DNA of 64,000 bases from Phapecoctavirus DIJ07P2, in the sequence record OZ035771.1. One strand, 5' to 3'. The stretch's first letter is position 1, and the number at the start of each line of letters is the position of its first letter. Positions 3,511 through 33,969 of the stretch are shown here, piece by piece. The notes beneath the pieces were generated by a model, which made no database searches, was not told the DNA's origin, and saw nothing but the letters and a program-made list of their open reading frames with translations. Made by a program: the position numbers and the translations under genes.

Positions 3511-4068
3511 ATGGGCCGCGAATATGTGATCCAGTCTTGGGTAAAACATGAAGCAGATGATCCGCGCATCATTCCTGATTATCTTGTCGATGAATCCACG
3601 GGCTATAGCGGGGAGCAAATAGGTAACAGATTAGCACGTAGTAACGGCAACGTAAAAGCGCGTTATGTGCGCCCTGGCTGGCTGGCAAATGGTAACGCTG
3701 ATTTATCCAGTGCGGAAGATGCGAGCGACGGCGCGAAAGATAATCCTTTGTACAAAGTTGATCCGGCTTTTCGTGTCCTGGATGAATACCCCAGCAAGAT
3801 AGCGGCGCTCGATCAGGCCCTGGAAAGTAAGCGCATCACCTGGACCGCTTACAACATGGCAAAAAACGTACTTGATGGTAAATTGATTCAAGCTGAAAGA
3901 AAATTAGCCAAAATTGCAGCCATAGCCCAGGAGGAAGACGAGGAGACAACGGAAGAGGAAGAGTACGAAGAGATCCCGCCGTTGTTGTGTGTTGATGCTT
4001 TTCCTGATTATCAGCCGACAGAGGAAGAAAAAAGGATCGCACTAGAAAACTTTGAAAATAGTCTTTGA
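3511..4068 (+). CDS. hypothetical protein with acidic C-terminus (185 aa)
   Basis: track ORF 3502..4068 trimmed to ATG 3511 (AAGGTGG 5 nt upstream); C-terminal EEDEETTEEEEYEE. Confidence 0.55.
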   Translation: MGREYVIQSWVKHEADDPRIIPDYLVDESTGYSGEQIGNRLARSNGNVKARYVRPGWLANGNADLSSAEDASDGAKDNPLYKVDPAFRVLDEYPSKIAALDQALESKRITWTAYNMAKNVLDGKLIQAERKLAKIAAIAQEEDEETTEEEEYEEIPPLLCVDAFPDYQPTEEEKRIALENFENSL

Positions 4069-4122
4069 CATATCGCCGCCACTGGCATAATATTTACCAC
4101 GTAGGGCGGCAATGGTGCCGCT
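4065..4122 (+). promoter_or_regulatory. early promoter / 5' hairpin cassette 4
   Basis: -35 TTGACA 4065 overlapping previous stop, -10 TAATAT 4088, stem GCGGC/GCCGC. Confidence 0.6.
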
Positions 4123-4150
4123 CATAGTGAAATTATGCAAGAGGCTTACA

Positions 4151-4246
4151 ATGATTAATAAAGGAAATAGCTTGACGGTTGGAACGATTAACGCTATCAT
4201 TCTCGCCGTTCCATTTTGGGTTGTAGTAGCGGCTATTATTTTCTAA
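4151..4246 (+). CDS. hydrophobic micro-protein (31 aa, single TM helix)
   Basis: ATG 4151 after AGAGG; MINKGNSLTVGTINAIILAVPFWVVVAAIIF; below 60-aa track cutoff. Confidence 0.45.
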   Translation: MINKGNSLTVGTINAIILAVPFWVVVAAIIF

Positions 4247-4255
4247 AAAATATTC

Positions 4256-4316
4256 TTGACAACGTTTTTTAATCTGATAAGATGTATCACATAGGGCGGC
4301 GGAATACTTCCCCGCC
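4256..4316 (+). promoter_or_regulatory. early promoter / 5' hairpin cassette 5
   Basis: -35 TTGACA 4256, -10 TAAGAT 4278, stem GGCGGCGG/CCCCGCC. Confidence 0.6.
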
Positions 4317-4337
4317 AAAACAAAAAAGGGTAACACA

Positions 4338-4700
4338 ATGAGCAAGCAAATCAATACTATCATGTTTAATCTGGTATCTTTCCGCGATGATATGAAAAAT
4401 TTACCACGTGAAACGGTTGATATTCATGTTTCAGCTTATCGCGCCCTTATTGACATGTTACCGCTAAAACGTGATCAACATGCCGCTAATATGATGCTTA
4501 ATGCTATGCTTAAAAAGATGATTCAAACGGATCTCACCCTGGCATATGAGTATCAAGGGCGCTTATATGCAAATTACAACAGAGCGGTACCTGGTCTGGG
4601 AAGTACTGAAGAGTTGCACGGCTTAAACCTGGATCAAAACACTTGGGATAGTATGCGCCGCGTTATGGTATGGGCCGAAAGCGGTAAAATTTACGAATAA
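4338..4700 (+). CDS. hypothetical protein (120 aa)
   Basis: track ORF directly downstream of cassette 5. Confidence 0.6.
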   Translation: MSKQINTIMFNLVSFRDDMKNLPRETVDIHVSAYRALIDMLPLKRDQHAANMMLNAMLKKMIQTDLTLAYEYQGRLYANYNRAVPGLGSTEELHGLNLDQNTWDSMRRVMVWAESGKIYE

Positions 4701-21976: not shown

Positions 21977-22258
21977 ATGGAACTCGTTCAAGAACTGTAT
22001 AATGCTTTAGGAGCAAAAGGAAAAGATTGGCCCGAACATGCGCTTATTGCTATAAGAGACTCCGATGGTGAGATTAAGTTTTCAAGCGTAAGTAAAGAGC
22101 ACATTGTACAAACAAAACTGGGTATTTATATGCGTGGAACTTATTGCTTATTCAACACCAGAATGGTAGAAGCCCCTGTTATCGAGGATGGAACAAAAGG
22201 TTGCCCCACAATCGTAACAAAAGCTGAATATGAGAAGTTTTTCTACGCTAAGGCTTGA
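21977..22258 (+). CDS. hypothetical protein (93 aa)
   Basis: track ORF; AAGGAGG RBS. Confidence 0.55.
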   Translation: MELVQELYNALGAKGKDWPEHALIAIRDSDGEIKFSSVSKEHIVQTKLGIYMRGTYCLFNTRMVEAPVIEDGTKGCPTIVTKAEYEKFFYAKA

Positions 22259-22302
22259 CACAGAAACAATACTATAGGATAGTGATTCTATCGTAGCAAT
22301 AG

Positions 22303-22325
22303 AACCCGCTTCGGCGGGTTTTTTC
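22303..22325 (+). terminator. rho-independent terminator
   Basis: AACCCGC-ttcg-GCGGGTT followed by TTTTT. Confidence 0.7.
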
Positions 22326-22349
22326 ATATCTGTAGCAATAGGAGGTCGT

Positions 22350-22580
22350 GTGTTAAATAAAATCGAAGAAGGTTGTATGGCATTTTTGGTAGATAACCCG
22401 TTTCCGTTTATGGTTAAGATCCACATAGGAGAGTATTTAGGTAATGACGAATGGGATTGTAGTATCAATAGTGAAATGCACCACTACCAACCAACAATCC
22501 TTAAGACGGATCAAATGGCGCGTATTACAGTAGAGGATGAATTGATTATTGAGTTATACGAGAGAGCACTACACAAGTAA
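22350..22580 (+). CDS. hypothetical protein (76 aa; GTG start)
   Basis: track ORF; AGGAGG 4 nt upstream of GTG. Confidence 0.4.
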   Translation: MLNKIEEGCMAFLVDNPFPFMVKIHIGEYLGNDEWDCSINSEMHHYQPTILKTDQMARITVEDELIIELYERALHK

Positions 22581-22623
22581 GCTAGAACCCACCTAAATCA
22601 AACAGAGACGCTCTAAAATAGGA

Positions 22624-22965: not shown

Positions 22966-23766
22966 TTATTTGTTTAAATGGTCTTCAACCATTTTGATAA
23001 AGCCTTCATCACTGAAGACTGTTCCTGCTTTCTCTCGGTAGACAAGCACTCCACGTTCTTCGTAGAGAGTTTGTTCTACAAAATTCAAACCTGGGTTAAC
23101 TACAACCATCTTAACCCCAATATTCAGGGCAGGGAAGAGTTCCCAGTTGAAGTTGATTACTTGGTTAGAGCAGCCTACAACGATAACCATATCTTGTGAT
23201 GTTAGTTGATCCAGTTTGTGATACATGTCTGTGTAGAGCGGTGCATTCTCACCAAAAAACACCACATTAGGCTTCACATATTTGTAATCGTCTACATCAA
23301 TAGCTGCGTAACCCACATCTTTGATAATTTTGTTATCAACAACAACTTCTGGCAAGAAACCATGAACGTGCAATATTTCTTCTCTATCGATTCCAGCGCG
23401 TTCTAATAGATCGTCAACGTTAGTAGTGATGTTAATAATCCTTTCTGCACCGTATTTTTCGAACCATTCTCCAATCTGAAGATGTGCTGGATTCGGGTCA
23501 ACTTTCTCTAATTCCACGCGACGTTTATTGTAGAAGTCGTGAGTTTTACGGTAGAGGTTATATCCTTCCACATCTAAGCCACCCATAGCATCAGGAATAC
23601 CCTGTTCTTGCTGATAACCGGCACGGAAGTTGAAAATGTCACAAACCTCAGAAAGATCATAAGAAGACCATAACGCCTCCCCTGAAGAAGTATCTGTTCT
23701 AAAAGCTGGGATACCGCTATCCACAGATAGTCCTGCGCCAGTTATGAATATGACTCTACGCGGCAT
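22966..23766 (-). CDS. Sir2-family protein (no zinc ribbon)
   Basis: GAGLSVDSGIPAFR, TTNVDDL, HG, VVFFGE motifs; no CxxC...CxxC module. Confidence 0.7.
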   Translation of the reverse strand: MPRRVIFITGAGLSVDSGIPAFRTDTSSGEALWSSYDLSEVCDIFNFRAGYQQEQGIPDAMGGLDVEGYNLYRKTHDFYNKRRVELEKVDPNPAHLQIGEWFEKYGAERIINITTNVDDLLERAGIDREEILHVHGFLPEVVVDNKIIKDVGYAAIDVDDYKYVKPNVVFFGENAPLYTDMYHKLDQLTSQDMVIVVGCSNQVINFNWELFPALNIGVKMVVVNPGLNFVEQTLYEERGVLVYREKAGTVFSDEGFIKMVEDHLNK

Positions 23767-24496
23767 AAATCTCCTCCTTATATTTTTCGCAAATGCTTTT
23801 ATTTGCAGGTTTATATTTTTCTTTCATCACCTTCAATCTTAGCTTCTCCAGAGCTATAGCACATCTCTCTGGATCGTTGAAACCATATTTGCAATACGTG
23901 GTCTTGTCAAACACAAACTTGAAAAAGAATGTTCTCTCTCTTGTTGCCACAAACACACAACTTAATCCTGAAGTGTTATCTATACGCTTCTTTTCTTTTT
24001 TGATATAAGATCCTTTCAAAATTTCTTGTTTTGCTAAAGCTCTAGCTACAATAGCTTCCTCTTTAGTTTTGAAACCTGAAACAGAGAAAGTTTCTTGGTT
24101 GTAGTTTATAACCCAAAGAAAAACACCATCCTTTTCATAAATACCTTCTAACCCATCCACATGTCTATTATTATTATTTAATAAATAGTTACTATCTAAT
24201 AAATTACTTTCCGCATTATTAAGTTTATTGCCGTCGTCATGGTCTATAACATCTGGACAGTAATTATGGTACATTTTAAAACAAACTCTGTGCTCCAAGT
24301 ATACAATACCATCTATTTTGACATGAGAGTAACCAACTTTATCAATAGTCCCTGCAATCTTCCCTGCGTATCTGCTATTCCACCTTTTGTTCTCTTTTGT
24401 TGTAGAAGGTTTAGGTTTCCAAACAAGACGACCATTCTCCACACTAAACCTTGATAACAAGTAATCTCTATCTGGTAAGGGTTTTCGTTCTATCAT
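23756..24496 (-). CDS. HNH homing endonuclease with AP2-like DNA-binding domain
   Basis: YLEHRVCFKMYHNYCPDVIDHDDGNKLNNAESNL HNH motif; GFKTKEEAIVARA AP2-like segment. Confidence 0.75.
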   Translation of the reverse strand: MIERKPLPDRDYLLSRFSVENGRLVWKPKPSTTKENKRWNSRYAGKIAGTIDKVGYSHVKIDGIVYLEHRVCFKMYHNYCPDVIDHDDGNKLNNAESNLLDSNYLLNNNNRHVDGLEGIYEKDGVFLWVINYNQETFSVSGFKTKEEAIVARALAKQEILKGSYIKKEKKRIDNTSGLSCVFVATRERTFFFKFVFDKTTYCKYGFNDPERCAIALEKLRLKVMKEKYKPANKSICEKYKEEIYAA

Positions 24497-24981
24497 TCAC
24501 CCTCGTCCTCCTCAAATGGATCATAAGAATCATATTCGTAAGTATCATCTTCTGAAAATTCTACTTCAAAGTAAATATCAAACTCTGCAAACAAACGTAG
24601 AATGTTGGACATGCTGTAATAGTTATCATAAGCTTCCTCTGCTTCATAGTAGAGGCGTAGCAAACGTTCAGCTTCTTCATCTTCTACCCATTTATGATCG
24701 ACATAGACAGAAGCAGCGTAGGTATTGTAGGCTTGTTCCCGAATATCGACAAGATTTCGGCTCAACAGTTCAGGGAAGTCCTTATAATTTACATTCAGTC
24801 TTCCGCATAACCACAAAGCAATATCATGCCAATCTGCATCCATACCACTAAAGCAACTTGCTTCTTCTCCAAAAGAAGCTTCTCCTAAATCACCACTAAT
24901 ACGAACAACATTAGATGAATTATAGCCACACGTTTCACAATCAGAGTAACTATTATGCACATTGATATTTACTTGAAACAT
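24493..24981 (-). CDS. highly acidic hypothetical protein (162 aa)
   Basis: Asp/Glu-rich throughout, C-terminus DDTYEYDSYDPFEEDEGE. Confidence 0.5.
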   Translation of the reverse strand: MFQVNINVHNSYSDCETCGYNSSNVVRISGDLGEASFGEEASCFSGMDADWHDIALWLCGRLNVNYKDFPELLSRNLVDIREQAYNTYAASVYVDHKWVEDEEAERLLRLYYEAEEAYDNYYSMSNILRLFAEFDIYFEVEFSEDDTYEYDSYDPFEEDEGE

Positions 24982-25039
24982 ATTCCCTCCTATAAAAGAA
25001 AAGCCCCCTGAAACAGGAGGCTTTGTTCAGATGTTGGCA

Positions 25040-25690
25040 CTATACCAGACTTTGTAGGTATTTGTCAAGGGCTTCTTGATCACCTTGGCAAACATAGCAA
25101 CGAAAGTCTTTAACAGATGGTACTTTATTCTCATCCCAGTCCCACATTATATTACCTTTGTAACGTGAACTAGGGAAGTCGAAAAATGCTGTATGGGTGA
25201 TGTGGTGTGGACCGCCCCAAACCTCTGTAAAGGTGAACTGCGGATACGCTACCTTCACCGCCTCCATAAACCAAGCTTTACGAATCAAAGCATTGTTGAT
25301 AAAATGCGCGTGACGTTCCATTTCTTCCCAGTTCTTCCACACACTTTTCTCGTCAAGGGAGAATACAAGATCCTCTTCAATATACAAGCCATCTTCGCAT
25401 TCATCAAAATCTGCCTCAAGACCTCCTACAGGTTCGTCGAGTCTAACACCATCAAAAGCAGAATATACCCACCAACCATCTTCCAGTAAGGCTTTGATAG
25501 GGACGAAGCCTTTATCAGCATATTGATCGAATTGTTTGACACGGTGGCTTGTGCAGTCTTCAAACTCACATTCTAAACGATATGCACCTTTTCGACGAGC
25601 CTCAAGACCGTGTGTACTGAAAATAACAACACTTCCTTCACCATCATTACGATCTACTTGATAAGCAACCACTGGTTTTGAATTTGACAT
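25040..25690 (-). CDS. hypothetical protein (216 aa) abutting MTase-like gene
   Basis: track ORF; start overlaps stop of 25690..26373. Confidence 0.5.
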   Translation of the reverse strand: MSNSKPVVAYQVDRNDGEGSVVIFSTHGLEARRKGAYRLECEFEDCTSHRVKQFDQYADKGFVPIKALLEDGWWVYSAFDGVRLDEPVGGLEADFDECEDGLYIEEDLVFSLDEKSVWKNWEEMERHAHFINNALIRKAWFMEAVKVAYPQFTFTEVWGGPHHITHTAFFDFPSSRYKGNIMWDWDENKVPSVKDFRCYVCQGDQEALDKYLQSLV

Positions 25691-26373
25691 TATTTCTCCT
25701 TATCTAGAAGATTGTTAGACAAAAACACTGCACGAGCAAAACCACGTGCGGTTAGTGATCTAAGTTGTTTTGTTTTTGCACTAGCTCCACCTAAGCTTTT
25801 CCAACCCCAGAAGCAGCCTATATGATCTACTGGTTTCTTCACTGGTTGAACAAAACCATTGCCGTGCCAAATACAAGTTTTCTTTGTATACCCATCACGG
25901 GTAGGCATTTTAGGATGAAAGCTTCCTTCCTCTTCAAACAAATACCCACCATACTCATAAGGATCAAAGTAAAAATCTGGTTTACGCCATAAGGTTGAAA
26001 GTTTACCTACTGGGTTCTCAATCATCCAAGGAACATTATATTTGTTACCCAAAGCTTCCACTACACGAATATTAGCTAAAGCTTCATCTAATTCCTCTGT
26101 GCTACGTTCGTGTTTGCTACCACTACCTGCTAACATAGTGCAAGGTGGAAATCCAAAAATAATATCGGGTTTAGGTATTCCATGATCTTCAGGGTTGAAT
26201 GTAGAATCTATCCAAGCATTCACATAGGTTATGTTTGGGTGCTCCATCCTAACCTCGTATTTACCGTGATCCCCTTCATCAGCGTTTACACAAAAACACT
26301 TGTGACCTGCTTCGGCATAACGTAACACCATGATCCCAGATCCGTCAAACATAGACAAAACTGTTTTACTCAT
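25690..26373 (-). CDS. compact C5-cytosine methyltransferase-like protein
   Basis: motif I-like LSMFDGSG, motif IV-like FGFPPC, motif VI-like ENPVG; track ORF trimmed to ATG 26373. Confidence 0.45.
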   Translation of the reverse strand: MSKTVLSMFDGSGIMVLRYAEAGHKCFCVNADEGDHGKYEVRMEHPNITYVNAWIDSTFNPEDHGIPKPDIIFGFPPCTMLAGSGSKHERSTEELDEALANIRVVEALGNKYNVPWMIENPVGKLSTLWRKPDFYFDPYEYGGYLFEEEGSFHPKMPTRDGYTKKTCIWHGNGFVQPVKKPVDHIGCFWGWKSLGGASAKTKQLRSLTARGFARAVFLSNNLLDKEK

Positions 26374-26764
26374 TACCCCTCCATTCAAGACAAGCCATAA
26401 CTTTACGCCAATCACTTTCTGTTAGGAAGATCTGTTCTGAACTGATCCACAAATCTAAATCTTCTACATCTGGAAGGCGGTAGCGTAACTCCAAGAGATC
26501 ATGTTCTTCAGGAGAAATGTATCCCAAATGTTCTGCCATATCGTGGAACCAAGCCCAACCGTGCATATTTTTAACTACATGCTCTCGTTGCGTCATGACT
26601 TTACGTTTCAGTCCAAACCAAGAAGTGATTACCACTTTACTCTCTCGGAGACGTTTGTCAATAGCCACTGTTTCTTTTTCGATACTCAACAACTTCACTC
26701 TTGCTTTGTTGAGATCCGCATGTGTTACTTTGAAGTAACTTTGTGACTGATCACACCAACCCAT
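26366..26764 (-). CDS. hypothetical protein (132 aa)
   Basis: track ORF. Confidence 0.45.
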   Translation of the reverse strand: MGWCDQSQSYFKVTHADLNKARVKLLSIEKETVAIDKRLRESKVVITSWFGLKRKVMTQREHVVKNMHGWAWFHDMAEHLGYISPEEHDLLELRYRLPDVEDLDLWISSEQIFLTESDWRKVMACLEWRGNE

Positions 26765-26765
26765 A

Positions 26766-27437
26766 TCAATAACCTCCTTCGTAAGGTTTCACCTTAGCCC
26801 TATCATAATATAACATCTCTGCCTCCTTCCGTTTACGAATAGCTTCTTCTTTACTGTTACCATAGTATAAACTAATATGCTCTCCATTGACTCGGATGTA
26901 TGCAATCCATTTGCCCCTATCTTTTCTGTATTTTACCCCACAAATACCGGATAGATTATCTTTCCTTAGTTTTTGATCATAAGATTGCATTGCGAGTGAA
27001 GCCCACTCACAGGTTTCTTTGCTATAAACATCAGCAGAATTAATTCTGTTTAAGGTTGTGTTTTGTGGTCTACTACCCATATCCTCAACGAAATTCAAAA
27101 AACCTAAGTCCCCCTTCTCTAACCATCTACAGCATACAGAAACTCCACTACCTCCATACTTAGGATAATTCGGTGAGTTCTCATTGGTGCACCTGTCTAT
27201 CATGGCATTGTAGGAATTATATGTATATCTATCCTCAATGAACTTGTAATGGTAACGCTCACAACCACAAGATTTAGTTTTACCAGATTTTAATCTTTCG
27301 GCTGTAGTAACAAACTTCTCACCGCAATGACAAATACAATTCCATTTTGTAGATCGTCCAGTCTCCTTAATTGCTACATCAAGAACTGTTATACCATTGA
27401 ATACCATTCCAGACAGGTTTTCTAATTTCCTCCCCAT
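26766..27437 (-). CDS. homing-endonuclease-like protein with AP2 domains
   Basis: Cys cluster WNCICHCG..KSCGC, VSVCCRW segment, GVKYRKDRGKWIAYIRVNGEHISLYYGNSKEEA AP2 module; start trimmed to ATG 27437. Confidence 0.55.
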   Translation of the reverse strand: MGRKLENLSGMVFNGITVLDVAIKETGRSTKWNCICHCGEKFVTTAERLKSGKTKSCGCERYHYKFIEDRYTYNSYNAMIDRCTNENSPNYPKYGGSGVSVCCRWLEKGDLGFLNFVEDMGSRPQNTTLNRINSADVYSKETCEWASLAMQSYDQKLRKDNLSGICGVKYRKDRGKWIAYIRVNGEHISLYYGNSKEEAIRKRKEAEMLYYDRAKVKPYEGGY

Positions 27438-27438
27438 A

Positions 27439-28374
27439 CTATTCCTCAAAAGGTTTAAGTAAGTGTTTATTAGCGTGGAATCTTTTGATGTAATCATCTT
27501 CTCCCATACTTTCATAAAGCTTCATCACGACATGGAAGGATTCATAGGCATATTCACGAAACCAACCACTAGTGATAGATGTGCAAACTTTAGATAAAGC
27601 CATCATAAAACTTTGCTTAGGTGTTGGACCTCCGATCTCTTCACCGAAAGGAATTTGTGAACGTTCCAAAGCCAAAACACACGCTTCTTCATAAACACCT
27701 AACAGGCGCACATGTTTTGGTTGAGCAAAAAACTTTTCTTTGCTGGTCATAACTTCACTTCCATCTTTCATATAAGATTTATATGCTGGAGCATCCATTA
27801 CCGCGATTGCTTCATGGATAGAATCATGATCATAAACATACGGAACCTCATCACCTTTAAAGAAGTCTTTACTTTTTACGTTTAAGTTCGGATGAGAGTA
27901 AGTGTATGTTTCTTTCTCACGCAACTCATAAATACTCTTAAGATTTTCTGGGATCTTTGCGCCCAGTGACCGCATGAAATGAATATCTTTCATAGTTTTA
28001 AAGAAGTGAGGACTATCCTTTTTAAAACGATGACTCATTTTAAGAAGGTAGAGCACATCTAAAGGAGCAACAACATGTCCAGCGTAAGTTCGACGAACAT
28101 CATCAGAATCTTCACAATAACTAATCAAAGCTTCTGTGCTATCTCCTTGAGAAGCAATATCGTATTCCAAATGTGCACCAGCTATCATTTTGACGTGGCC
28201 TTTGTTCCCTTTACGTTCTACAAGTTCAACAAACTCGTCTTGAGAGAACATTTTTGATAATTCTTCCCACTCTTGTTCTGTACAGAGATAATCTAAATCT
28301 ACACAAGGGCGATACAAGTCTTTTCCCATGTCCATAGCATGAATTTGTAATGCACGGCTACCAATTAACACCAT
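27439..28374 (-). CDS. hypothetical protein with possible nucleotidyltransferase-like motif
   Basis: N-terminal LIGSRAL...VDLDY resembles hG[GS]...DxD of Pol-beta-type NTases but spacing is atypical. Confidence 0.4.
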   Translation of the reverse strand: MVLIGSRALQIHAMDMGKDLYRPCVDLDYLCTEQEWEELSKMFSQDEFVELVERKGNKGHVKMIAGAHLEYDIASQGDSTEALISYCEDSDDVRRTYAGHVVAPLDVLYLLKMSHRFKKDSPHFFKTMKDIHFMRSLGAKIPENLKSIYELREKETYTYSHPNLNVKSKDFFKGDEVPYVYDHDSIHEAIAVMDAPAYKSYMKDGSEVMTSKEKFFAQPKHVRLLGVYEEACVLALERSQIPFGEEIGGPTPKQSFMMALSKVCTSITSGWFREYAYESFHVVMKLYESMGEDDYIKRFHANKHLLKPFEE

Positions 28375-33459: not shown

Positions 33460-33969
33460 TTAAACAAAATAAAATGGTTGAGAGAGGCCCAAACGATTCT
33501 TTGGGTCGTATACATACCAAGCGTATGCTGTCTTATCTGTTCCACCTGCAACAAACGAAGGCCGTTCTGAAAGAACTATAAGGTTTGTCGGTGGATTCTT
33601 TTGATGGAACTCTCGTCGTTTCTTTGACTCCAAGAAGCCCAACCGAAGAAGATAAATACAAACATCCGCCTCTTTTAAGCTCTTTTCCAAGAACTCCATT
33701 GCTAACTTAAATGGAGGGTTTGTGATTATAATGTCGGGACGATTTTCCCACTCGTGACTAAAATAATCCTTACCTTCTTCAAGTTCACAATATTCTGAAC
33801 CTTCAGGAAAATGGCGATAAATCGCTTCAGCTTCACCTCTGCAAGGTTCTGCAAAAACCCAACCTTCTTCCTTTAGATTTTTGAAATCTATAACACTAAA
33901 CAAACTATTGATTGCTTTTTGCGGTGTAGGATAATAATCGCTCGTTGGGCGATCATAATCTAATGCCAT
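33460..33969 (-). CDS. small methyltransferase-like protein (NPPF motif)
   Basis: DIIITNPPF catalytic-type tetrapeptide as in N6-adenine / amino-MTases. Confidence 0.5.
   Translation of the reverse strand: MALDYDRPTSDYYPTPQKAINSLFSVIDFKNLKEEGWVFAEPCRGEAEAIYRHFPEGSEYCELEEGKDYFSHEWENRPDIIITNPPFKLAMEFLEKSLKEADVCIYLLRLGFLESKKRREFHQKNPPTNLIVLSERPSFVAGGTDKTAYAWYVYDPKNRLGLSQPFYFV

What the first reader, a model, noticed from the sequence alone, without database searches (positions are those of the whole stretch)
25040..26415. Unusually compact C5-methyltransferase-like protein with an abutting partner ORF
The 227-aa protein carries motif I-like FDGSG, motif IV-like GFPPC (Pro-Pro-Cys rather than Pro-Cys-Gln) and motif VI-like ENPVG, but is far shorter than typical DNA C5-methyltransferases and shows no obvious target-recognition domain. 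The next ORF (25040-25690, 216 aa) starts on its stop codon and could supply the missing part, or the enzyme may act on a nucleotide or RNA substrate. A separate small NPPF-motif methyltransferase lies at 33460-33969.
Basis: partly seen in the sequence, partly recalled or inferred. Interest (0 to 1): 0.5.

Follow-up and report, generated by a model that had tools for sequence, protein, structure and literature searches.

The report
Compact phage Dcm-like cytosine methyltransferase
This is an ordinary, already annotated gene of a Phapecoctavirus coliphage: a very small stand-alone DNA cytosine-C5 methyltransferase of a family found in over a thousand phage genomes, and the neighbouring gene is most likely only a neighbour, not its missing half.

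The parts
25690..26373 (-). Compact Dcm-like DNA cytosine-C5 methyltransferase, 227 aa. Motif I is FDGSG (aa 9-13). Motif IV is FPPCT with the catalytic Cys78. Motif VI is ENP (Glu119). YTKKT (Lys164/165) stands in place of motif VIII QxRxR. The short variable region is aa 172-204. The motif IX-like RSLTARGFARAV is at aa 205-216.
26376..26382 (-). Shine-Dalgarno sequence (GGAGGGG) for the ATG at 26373. The MTase start overlaps the upstream ORF (26366-26764) by 8 nt.
   Evidence: Read directly from the sequence. The N-termini of homologues agree with this start.
25040..25690 (-). Abutting downstream ORF, 216 aa, function unknown (PHROG 8514). It has two parts: an N-terminal part (aa ~9-86) that also occurs alone in Xanthomonas phages, and a C-terminal helix-plus-sheet part.
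25696..25701 (-). Shine-Dalgarno sequence (AAGGAG) of the downstream ORF. It lies inside the end of the MTase gene, and the stop and start codons share one base (TAATG at 25692-25688).
   Evidence: Read directly from the sequence.
25000..25024 (-). Terminator-like hairpin with an 11-bp stem and a T-run, 16 nt after the stop of the downstream ORF. It is the probable end of the transcription unit.
   Evidence: A promoter-like site at 28433-28405(-) suggests a five-gene unit running 28374 to 25040 (inferred).

Best explanation
ORF 25690-26373(-) is a stand-alone, SAM-dependent DNA cytosine-C5 methyltransferase of the compact 'Dcm-like' family common in enterobacterial phages. Inferred mechanism, from established C5-MTase chemistry and the residue mapping: a target cytosine is flipped into the pocket; Cys78 (motif IV, FPPCT) attacks C6; Glu119 (motif VI, ENP) protonates N3; the methyl group comes from SAM held by motif I (FDGSG) and the Rossmann core; Lys164/Lys165 take the place of the motif VIII arginines. 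DNA is read by a ~33-aa loop (aa 172-204) plus the RSLTxRG helix, not by a separate recognition domain. Its likely role is to methylate phage DNA during infection so that host cytosine-sensitive restriction enzymes cannot cut it. Its known cost is that this activity is what retron Ec86/Eco1 senses. The target site is probably CCWGG-like, but I hold that at only about 50%. The abutting ORF is a co-transcribed, translationally coupled neighbour of unknown function and is not a subunit.
Against: There is no Pfam or NCBIfam hit, and sequence similarity to solved C5-MTases is marginal (E 0.08-0.7). Motif VIII QxRxR and a recognisable motif X are absent, so the catalytic details are inferred. No methylation data exist for this phage. 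CCWGG specificity was assumed by analogy with E. coli Dcm, not mapped. The hosts of K42 and KP36 have their own Dcm, which confounds both experiments. The host Dcm did not activate the retron, so the phage enzyme may differ in site or substrate preference. The variable loop differs between the window protein (FWGWKSLGG) and KarlJaspers (NPGWAKTGG). The k-mer test does not discriminate: T1 lacks the gene yet avoids CCWGG only weakly (83 observed, 102 expected).
Confidence: 0.85

Rival explanations
1. Two-subunit methyltransferase. The 216-aa downstream ORF supplies the missing target-recognition function, as the beta subunit does in the split enzyme M.AquI, or otherwise sets the specificity of the 227-aa catalytic core.
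For: The start codon overlaps the MTase stop codon and the two genes share a transcription unit. Within Stephanstirmvirinae the partner always lies just downstream of a C5-MTase gene, including in phi92, where the compact enzyme is replaced by a canonical 329-aa PF00145 enzyme.
Against: The MTase family is about ten times more widespread than the partner (1,487 against 151 phage records). KarlJaspers and KP36 carry the MTase without the partner. K42 Dcm is active alone. Partner homologues in Xanthomonas and Pseudomonas phages have no such MTase within 3 kb. In phi92 and Klebsiella phi1_175008 the two genes are not abutting. There are no fusions. The motif IX-like segment is inside the MTase. 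The partner has no MTase or TRD-like fold match, though its model is poor. In phi92 the upstream enzyme is full length and needs no TRD donor. Overlapping junctions are the norm in this cluster (11 of 23).
Confidence: 0.05
2. The enzyme acts mainly on RNA (DNMT2-like tRNA m5C) or on a free nucleotide, not on duplex phage DNA.
Confidence: 0.04
3. A C5-MTase-fold enzyme that transfers a group other than methyl, for example carboxymethyl from Cx-SAM as CmoX does, or that seeds a hypermodification pathway.
Against: LC-MS found 5mC for the homologue. No TET-like, glycosyl- or amino-transferase partner genes were found in the neighbourhood scanned. The CmoX similarity is no better than that to ordinary methyltransferases.
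Confidence: 0.03

Closest known systems
Phage K42 / KarlJaspers (Bas06) 'Dcm-like C5 cytosine methyltransferase', the trigger of retron Ec86/Eco1 (Wang et al., bioRxiv 10.1101/2023.08.16.553469; Cell Rep 2024;43:114857)
   Same: Same family: KarlJaspers bas06_0055 is 50% identical over the full length, E 1e-71. Same size (236 against 227 aa). Same FPPCT, ENP and KK residues at the positions mutated in that study. Same stand-alone gene organisation.
   Different: The central part of the short variable loop differs (FWGWKSLGG here, NPGWAKTGG there), so the target site could differ. The host phage is a 150-kb myovirus rather than a 51-kb siphovirus. Here a 216-aa ORF abuts the gene.
Klebsiella phage KP36 (Webervirus) gp74
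   Same: 59% identical, 230 aa, and the same FWxWKxLGG loop. KP36 virion DNA resists EcoRII at all 155 CCWGG sites.
   Different: Motif IV is FPSCT. The published paper did not recognise the gene and credited the host Dcm. No partner ORF is present.
Canonical bacterial DNA C5-methyltransferases (Pfam PF00145: M.HhaI, M.HaeIII, E. coli Dcm, phi92 gp043)
   Same: Same catalytic-domain fold, with motif I, motif IV Cys and motif VI Glu in the same order.
   Different: About 100-250 aa shorter. The variable region is ~33 aa instead of a folded TRD. Motif IV reads PCT rather than PCQ, motif VI ENP rather than ENV, and motif VIII YxK[KR]T rather than QxRxR. There is no clear motif X. The protein scores below the Pfam threshold.
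DNMT3A/DNMT3B catalytic domain
   Different: 19% identity. DNMT3 works as a DNMT3L-assisted tetramer on CpG. Nothing here shows oligomerisation or CpG preference.
M.AquI-type split C5-methyltransferase
   Same: Two adjacent genes, the first carrying motifs I-VIII.
   Different: Here the first protein also carries the motif IX-like segment. The second protein has no MTase motifs and is absent from most genomes that encode the first.

Membership tests
Compact phage Dcm-like C5-MTase family (PHROG 757; K42/KarlJaspers Dcm) | Full-length profile match to PHROG 757 | tested here: met
   E 1.8e-84; aa 1-225 against profile positions 13-223 of 247.
Compact phage Dcm-like C5-MTase family (PHROG 757; K42/KarlJaspers Dcm) | End-to-end similarity to a close counterpart of the experimentally characterised member | tested here: met
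   50% identity, E 1e-71, aa 5-220 against 6-234 of KarlJaspers bas06_0055. The K42 genome is 95.4% identical to KarlJaspers and its dcm is also 711 bp.
Compact phage Dcm-like C5-MTase family (PHROG 757; K42/KarlJaspers Dcm) | Residues equivalent to C82, E128, K175 and K176 (loss of these abolishes activity in K42 Dcm) | tested here: met
   C78, E119, K164 and K165 align to them. C78 and E119 are present in 110/110 and K164 in 109/110 diverse members.
Compact phage Dcm-like C5-MTase family (PHROG 757; K42/KarlJaspers Dcm) | Single-domain protein of ~200-260 aa that occurs without a fixed partner gene | tested here: met
   Median length 226 aa in 231 full-length homologues. Partner absent from KarlJaspers and KP36.
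Compact phage Dcm-like C5-MTase family (PHROG 757; K42/KarlJaspers Dcm) | 5mC formation on DNA | not testable with these tools
   Shown only for K42 Dcm by LC-MS. No methylome data for Phapecoctavirus were found.
Canonical DNA C5-methyltransferases (Pfam PF00145) | Pfam DNA_methylase match above the gathering score | tested here: not met
   No Pfam family at E <= 0.1. Only 1 of the 120 listed homologues carries a precomputed PF00145 hit.
Canonical DNA C5-methyltransferases (Pfam PF00145) | Catalytic-domain fold | tested here: met
Canonical DNA C5-methyltransferases (Pfam PF00145) | Motif I FxGxG, motif IV PC(Q), motif VI ENV | tested here: met
   FDGSG, FPPCT and ENP align with FSGAGG, GPPCQ and ENV of M.HaeIII. 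Variations: Q to T and V to P; the Gly at position 11 is not conserved in the wider family.
Canonical DNA C5-methyltransferases (Pfam PF00145) | Motif VIII QxRxR | tested here: not met
   Replaced by Y162-T-K164-K165-T166; Y, K164 and T are near-invariant.
Canonical DNA C5-methyltransferases (Pfam PF00145) | Folded target-recognition domain between motifs VIII and IX | tested here: not met
   33 aa here; 24-68 aa (median 34) across the family. The DSSP string shows only two short helices there.
Split two-subunit C5-MTase (M.AquI type) | Second polypeptide carrying part of the TRD and motifs IX-X, obligatorily co-occurring with the first | tested here: not met
   Motif IX-like RSLTxRGFARAV is in the first protein. 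The partner has no MTase-related profile or fold hit. Co-occurrence is limited to Stephanstirmvirinae.
DNMT2 / RNA m5C methyltransferases | Closer structural similarity to tRNA/rRNA m5C enzymes than to DNA enzymes | tested here: not met

The most novel reading that the evidence does not exclude
The compact enzyme reads a 5-bp site with almost no recognition domain. It might do this by working as a DNMT3-like dimer across the quasi-palindromic CCWGG. In Stephanstirmvirinae, the conserved downstream 216-aa protein might be a modulator or reader of cytosine methylation rather than a bystander, since it is kept next to two different C5-methyltransferases (compact here, canonical in phi92).
Probability: 0.1. 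Interest if true: 0.5.

Novelty: already known. Interest (0 to 1): 0.2.

Why it matters
It matters little as a discovery. The gene is already annotated in GenBank and RefSeq, belongs to a large PHROG, and has a characterised relative. Three points are still useful. First, at about 215-245 aa this family is much shorter than the ~290-390-aa catalytic domains and enzymes it matched in the PDB. It falls below the Pfam and NCBIfam thresholds, so it is often left as 'hypothetical protein' (many rows). It was overlooked in at least one experimental paper, on KP36. Second, its true sequence specificity and its way of reading DNA without a recognition domain have not been measured. Third, because this activity triggers retron Ec86/Eco1, its presence predicts that Phapecoctavirus phages may be sensitive to that defence system. 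That is relevant to choosing phages for therapy.

Tried and rejected
- Pfam and NCBIfam scans of both proteins found nothing.
- phmmer and profile searches against PDB sequences gave only marginal M.HaeIII hits and nothing for the partner.
- Longer family members (313-348 aa) were scanned for informative fusions. Only one HNH_2 and one weak HTH appeared, and none resembled the partner.
- I tested the idea that k-mer avoidance could reveal the target site. CCWGG and GATC are at expectation here and in KarlJaspers and KP36, and T7 avoids both. But T1, which lacks the compact MTase, avoids CCWGG only weakly. The test therefore cannot separate phage from host Dcm protection.
- I considered a frameshift joining the two ORFs and rejected it. 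Family lengths centre on 226 aa, the C-terminus is conserved to the end (ARAVFxAN), the partner has its own Shine-Dalgarno sequence, and no fused homologue exists.
- The published Cell Reports version of the retron study is not held in the library, so I relied on the preprint.

Full report
**Where the window comes from.** The stretch 24400-27600 is 99.2% identical to Escherichia phage nepoznato (Phapecoctavirus, Stephanstirmvirinae). In that RefSeq record the two ORFs are gp197, 'DNA methyltransferase' (GenBank note: Dcm), and gp196, 'hypothetical protein'. The finding therefore concerns an already deposited and annotated gene.

**Checking the observation.** One search lists ORF 25690..26415(-) and ORF 25040..25690(-).
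- The true start of the first ORF is the ATG at 26373. It is preceded by GGAGGGG, and homologues begin at the same MSK.
- FDGSG (aa 9-13), GFPPC (aa 74-78) and ENPVG (aa 119-123) are all present.
- The stop TAA (25692-25690) shares its last base with the ATG of the 216-aa ORF, which has its own AAGGAG Shine-Dalgarno sequence.
- One correction: 'PPC' is not unusual, because M.HaeIII has GGPPCQ at the aligned position. What differs is the residue after the Cys, which is Thr in 97 of 110 family representatives.

**What the 227-aa protein is.** Pfam and NCBIfam give no hit, and phmmer against PDB sequences gives only a marginal M.HaeIII match (E 0.08). Other evidence is much stronger.
- PHROGs gives a full-length match to PHROG 757, 'DNA methyltransferase' (E 1.8e-84).
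- There are 870 homologous 90%-clusters, 965 50%-cluster representatives, and hits in 1,487 of 50,697 phage records. These span Phapecoctavirus, Vequintavirus, Krischvirus, Webervirus, other Drexlerviridae and more.
- Nearly all members are 200-260 aa (median 226), so the compactness is a property of the whole family and not a truncation.
- An AlphaFold model built on 27 homologues is confident (pLDDT 85.8, pTM 0.86).
- Across 110 diverse members, C78, E119 and Y162 are invariant. P76, N120, P121, K164, T166, R205 and S206 are near-invariant.
- The canonical QxRxR of motif VIII is replaced by YxK[KR]T.
- The segment between the motif VIII strand and the motif IX-like RSLTxRGFARAV is 33 aa here (24-68 aa, median 34, across the family). 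No folded target-recognition domain can fit there.

**Experimental anchor from the literature.** A retron study (bioRxiv 10.1101/2023.08.16.553469; cited by later papers as Cell Rep 2024;43:114857) isolated escape mutants of a KarlJaspers-like phage, K42.
- All escapers disrupted a 711-bp dcm gene.
- That gene, expressed alone from pBAD, raised 5mC on Ec86 msDNA (LC-MS) and activated the retron.
- A C82A/E128A/K175A/K176A mutant did neither.
- The 711-bp gene of KarlJaspers (bas06_0055, 'Dcm-like C5 cytosine methyltransferase') is 50% identical to the window protein end to end (E 1e-71). The four mutated residues align to C78, E119, K164 and K165.

The family is therefore a working DNA C5-methyltransferase that needs no phage partner.

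**What remains uncertain is the target site.** The retron authors assumed CCWGG by analogy with E. coli Dcm. They supported this only by showing that changing CCTGG in the msDNA stem abolishes defence. The dcm+ host did not activate the retron by itself, so the phage enzyme may differ in site or substrate preference.
- A second indirect datum comes from Klebsiella phage KP36. Its DNA has 155 EcoRII sites, none of them cut, and the authors blamed the host because they saw no cytosine MTase gene (PMC3620542). Yet KP36 gp74 is 59% identical to the window protein.
- I tried a composition test. In the window, CCWGG (82 observed, 75 expected) and GATC (303, 298) are at expectation. CCSGG (0, 10.5), GGCC (27, 79), CCGG (33, 66), GTAC, CTAG and several 6-mers are depleted. 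KarlJaspers shows the same for CCWGG, CCSGG, GGCC and GATC, and T7 avoids CCWGG (2, 59) and GATC (6, 143).
- T1 lacks the compact MTase and still avoids CCWGG only weakly (83, 102). The test is therefore compatible with CCWGG protection but does not demonstrate it.

- It is found in 11 clusters and 151 phage records, essentially Stephanstirmvirinae plus a few distant homologues.
- The distant homologues in Xanthomonas KPhi1 and Pseudomonas Epa5 have no compact MTase within 3 kb.
- KarlJaspers and KP36 have the MTase and no partner.
- In Klebsiella phi1_175008 a small ORF separates the two genes.
- In phi92 the slot upstream of the partner homologue holds a canonical 329-aa PF00145 methyltransferase plus a 40-aa ORF. 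That enzyme needs no recognition-domain donor.
- No fetched protein matches both queries.

Abutment is not special here either. Of 23 consecutive gene junctions in this minus-strand cluster, 11 overlap, four of them by the same single base (coordinates). A terminator-like hairpin directly after the partner (25024-25000), together with a promoter-like site at 28433-28405, suggests a five-gene transcription unit. The two genes are therefore probably co-expressed, which fits neighbourhood as well as partnership. The one point in favour of a link is that the partner stays next to a C5-MTase even where the MTase type was swapped. I rate a functional link at about 5-10%.

**Rivals.**
- A non-methyl transfer, as in CmoX: disfavoured by the 5mC detected for K42 Dcm and by the absence of hypermodification genes nearby.

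**Verdict.** The sequence observation is correct, and the 'compact C5-methyltransferase without a TRD' reading is right. The 'partner supplies the missing part' and 'non-DNA substrate' readings are not supported. The object is a member of a known, widespread and partly characterised family in a phage genome that is already public. The remaining open questions are its exact specificity, how it recognises DNA, and what the 216-aa neighbour does. They are modestly interesting and easy to test.

Noticed in passing
It matches PHROG 799 'DNA methyltransferase' (E 2.8e-59), but only profile positions 206-373 of 458. In Pfam it has only a sub-threshold EcoRI_methylase hit around the NPPF motif, and it has no NCBIfam hit. 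It equals nepoznato gp215. It is very small for an amino-methyltransferase. GATC is not avoided in the window, but no link to this ORF was tested.
   Followed up: partly
window 1-64000 (whole): The window shows strong avoidance of several restriction sites (observed against expected): CCSGG 0/10.5, GGCC 27/79, GTAC 71/180, CTAG 58/135, CTCAG 8/46, CCGG 33/66. The sites GGATCC, CTGCAG, TCCGGA, GCATGC and GGCGCC are all absent. CCWGG and GATC are at expectation. All 82 CCNGG sites are CCWGG.
   Followed up: partly
L002 2894-3883 (phi92 gp043) and 4007-4618 (gp041): In Justusliebigvirus phi92 the slot that holds the compact MTase in this window holds a canonical 329-aa PF00145 C5-methyltransferase (E 3.1e-44). 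It is followed by a 40-aa ORF and then the partner homologue. This looks like an in-place swap of one C5-MTase type for another.
   Followed up: partly
L010 47552-48244 (-) (Klebsiella phage KP36 gp74): KP36 encodes a 230-aa member of the compact family, 59% identical to the window protein. The 2013 paper reporting its complete EcoRII resistance stated that the phage has no cytosine methyltransferase and credited the host. My count of 155 CCWGG sites matches theirs.
   Followed up: yes
window 23756-24496 (-) and 26766-27515 (-): Two HNH/AP2-type homing-endonuclease-like ORFs (PHROG 99 and PHROG 374) flank the MTase region. The second is 249 aa here, while nepoznato annotates only a 333-bp HNH gene at that place. 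The window-to-nepoznato alignment is in two pieces covering 95%, which suggests an indel there.
   Followed up: no
window 22966-23766 (-) and 27439-28374 (-): A Sir2-family protein (Pfam SIR2 E 2.2e-20; PHROG 2162) and a DUF7275/DUF7277 protein (E 8.7e-75) lie in the same early-gene cluster. Sir2 is also retained next to the partner homologue in phi92 and in Klebsiella phi1_175008.
   Followed up: no
window ~22000-22600 and ~60000: GC skew changes sign at about 22 kb and again at about 60 kb, matching switches of coding strand.
   Followed up: no
window 25068-25039 (-): The best sigma-70-like match in the region (TTGACA-18-TATAGT with an upstream TG, 11 of 12 positions) lies at the very end of the partner ORF, just upstream of the terminator-like hairpin. 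Its function is unknown.
   Followed up: no
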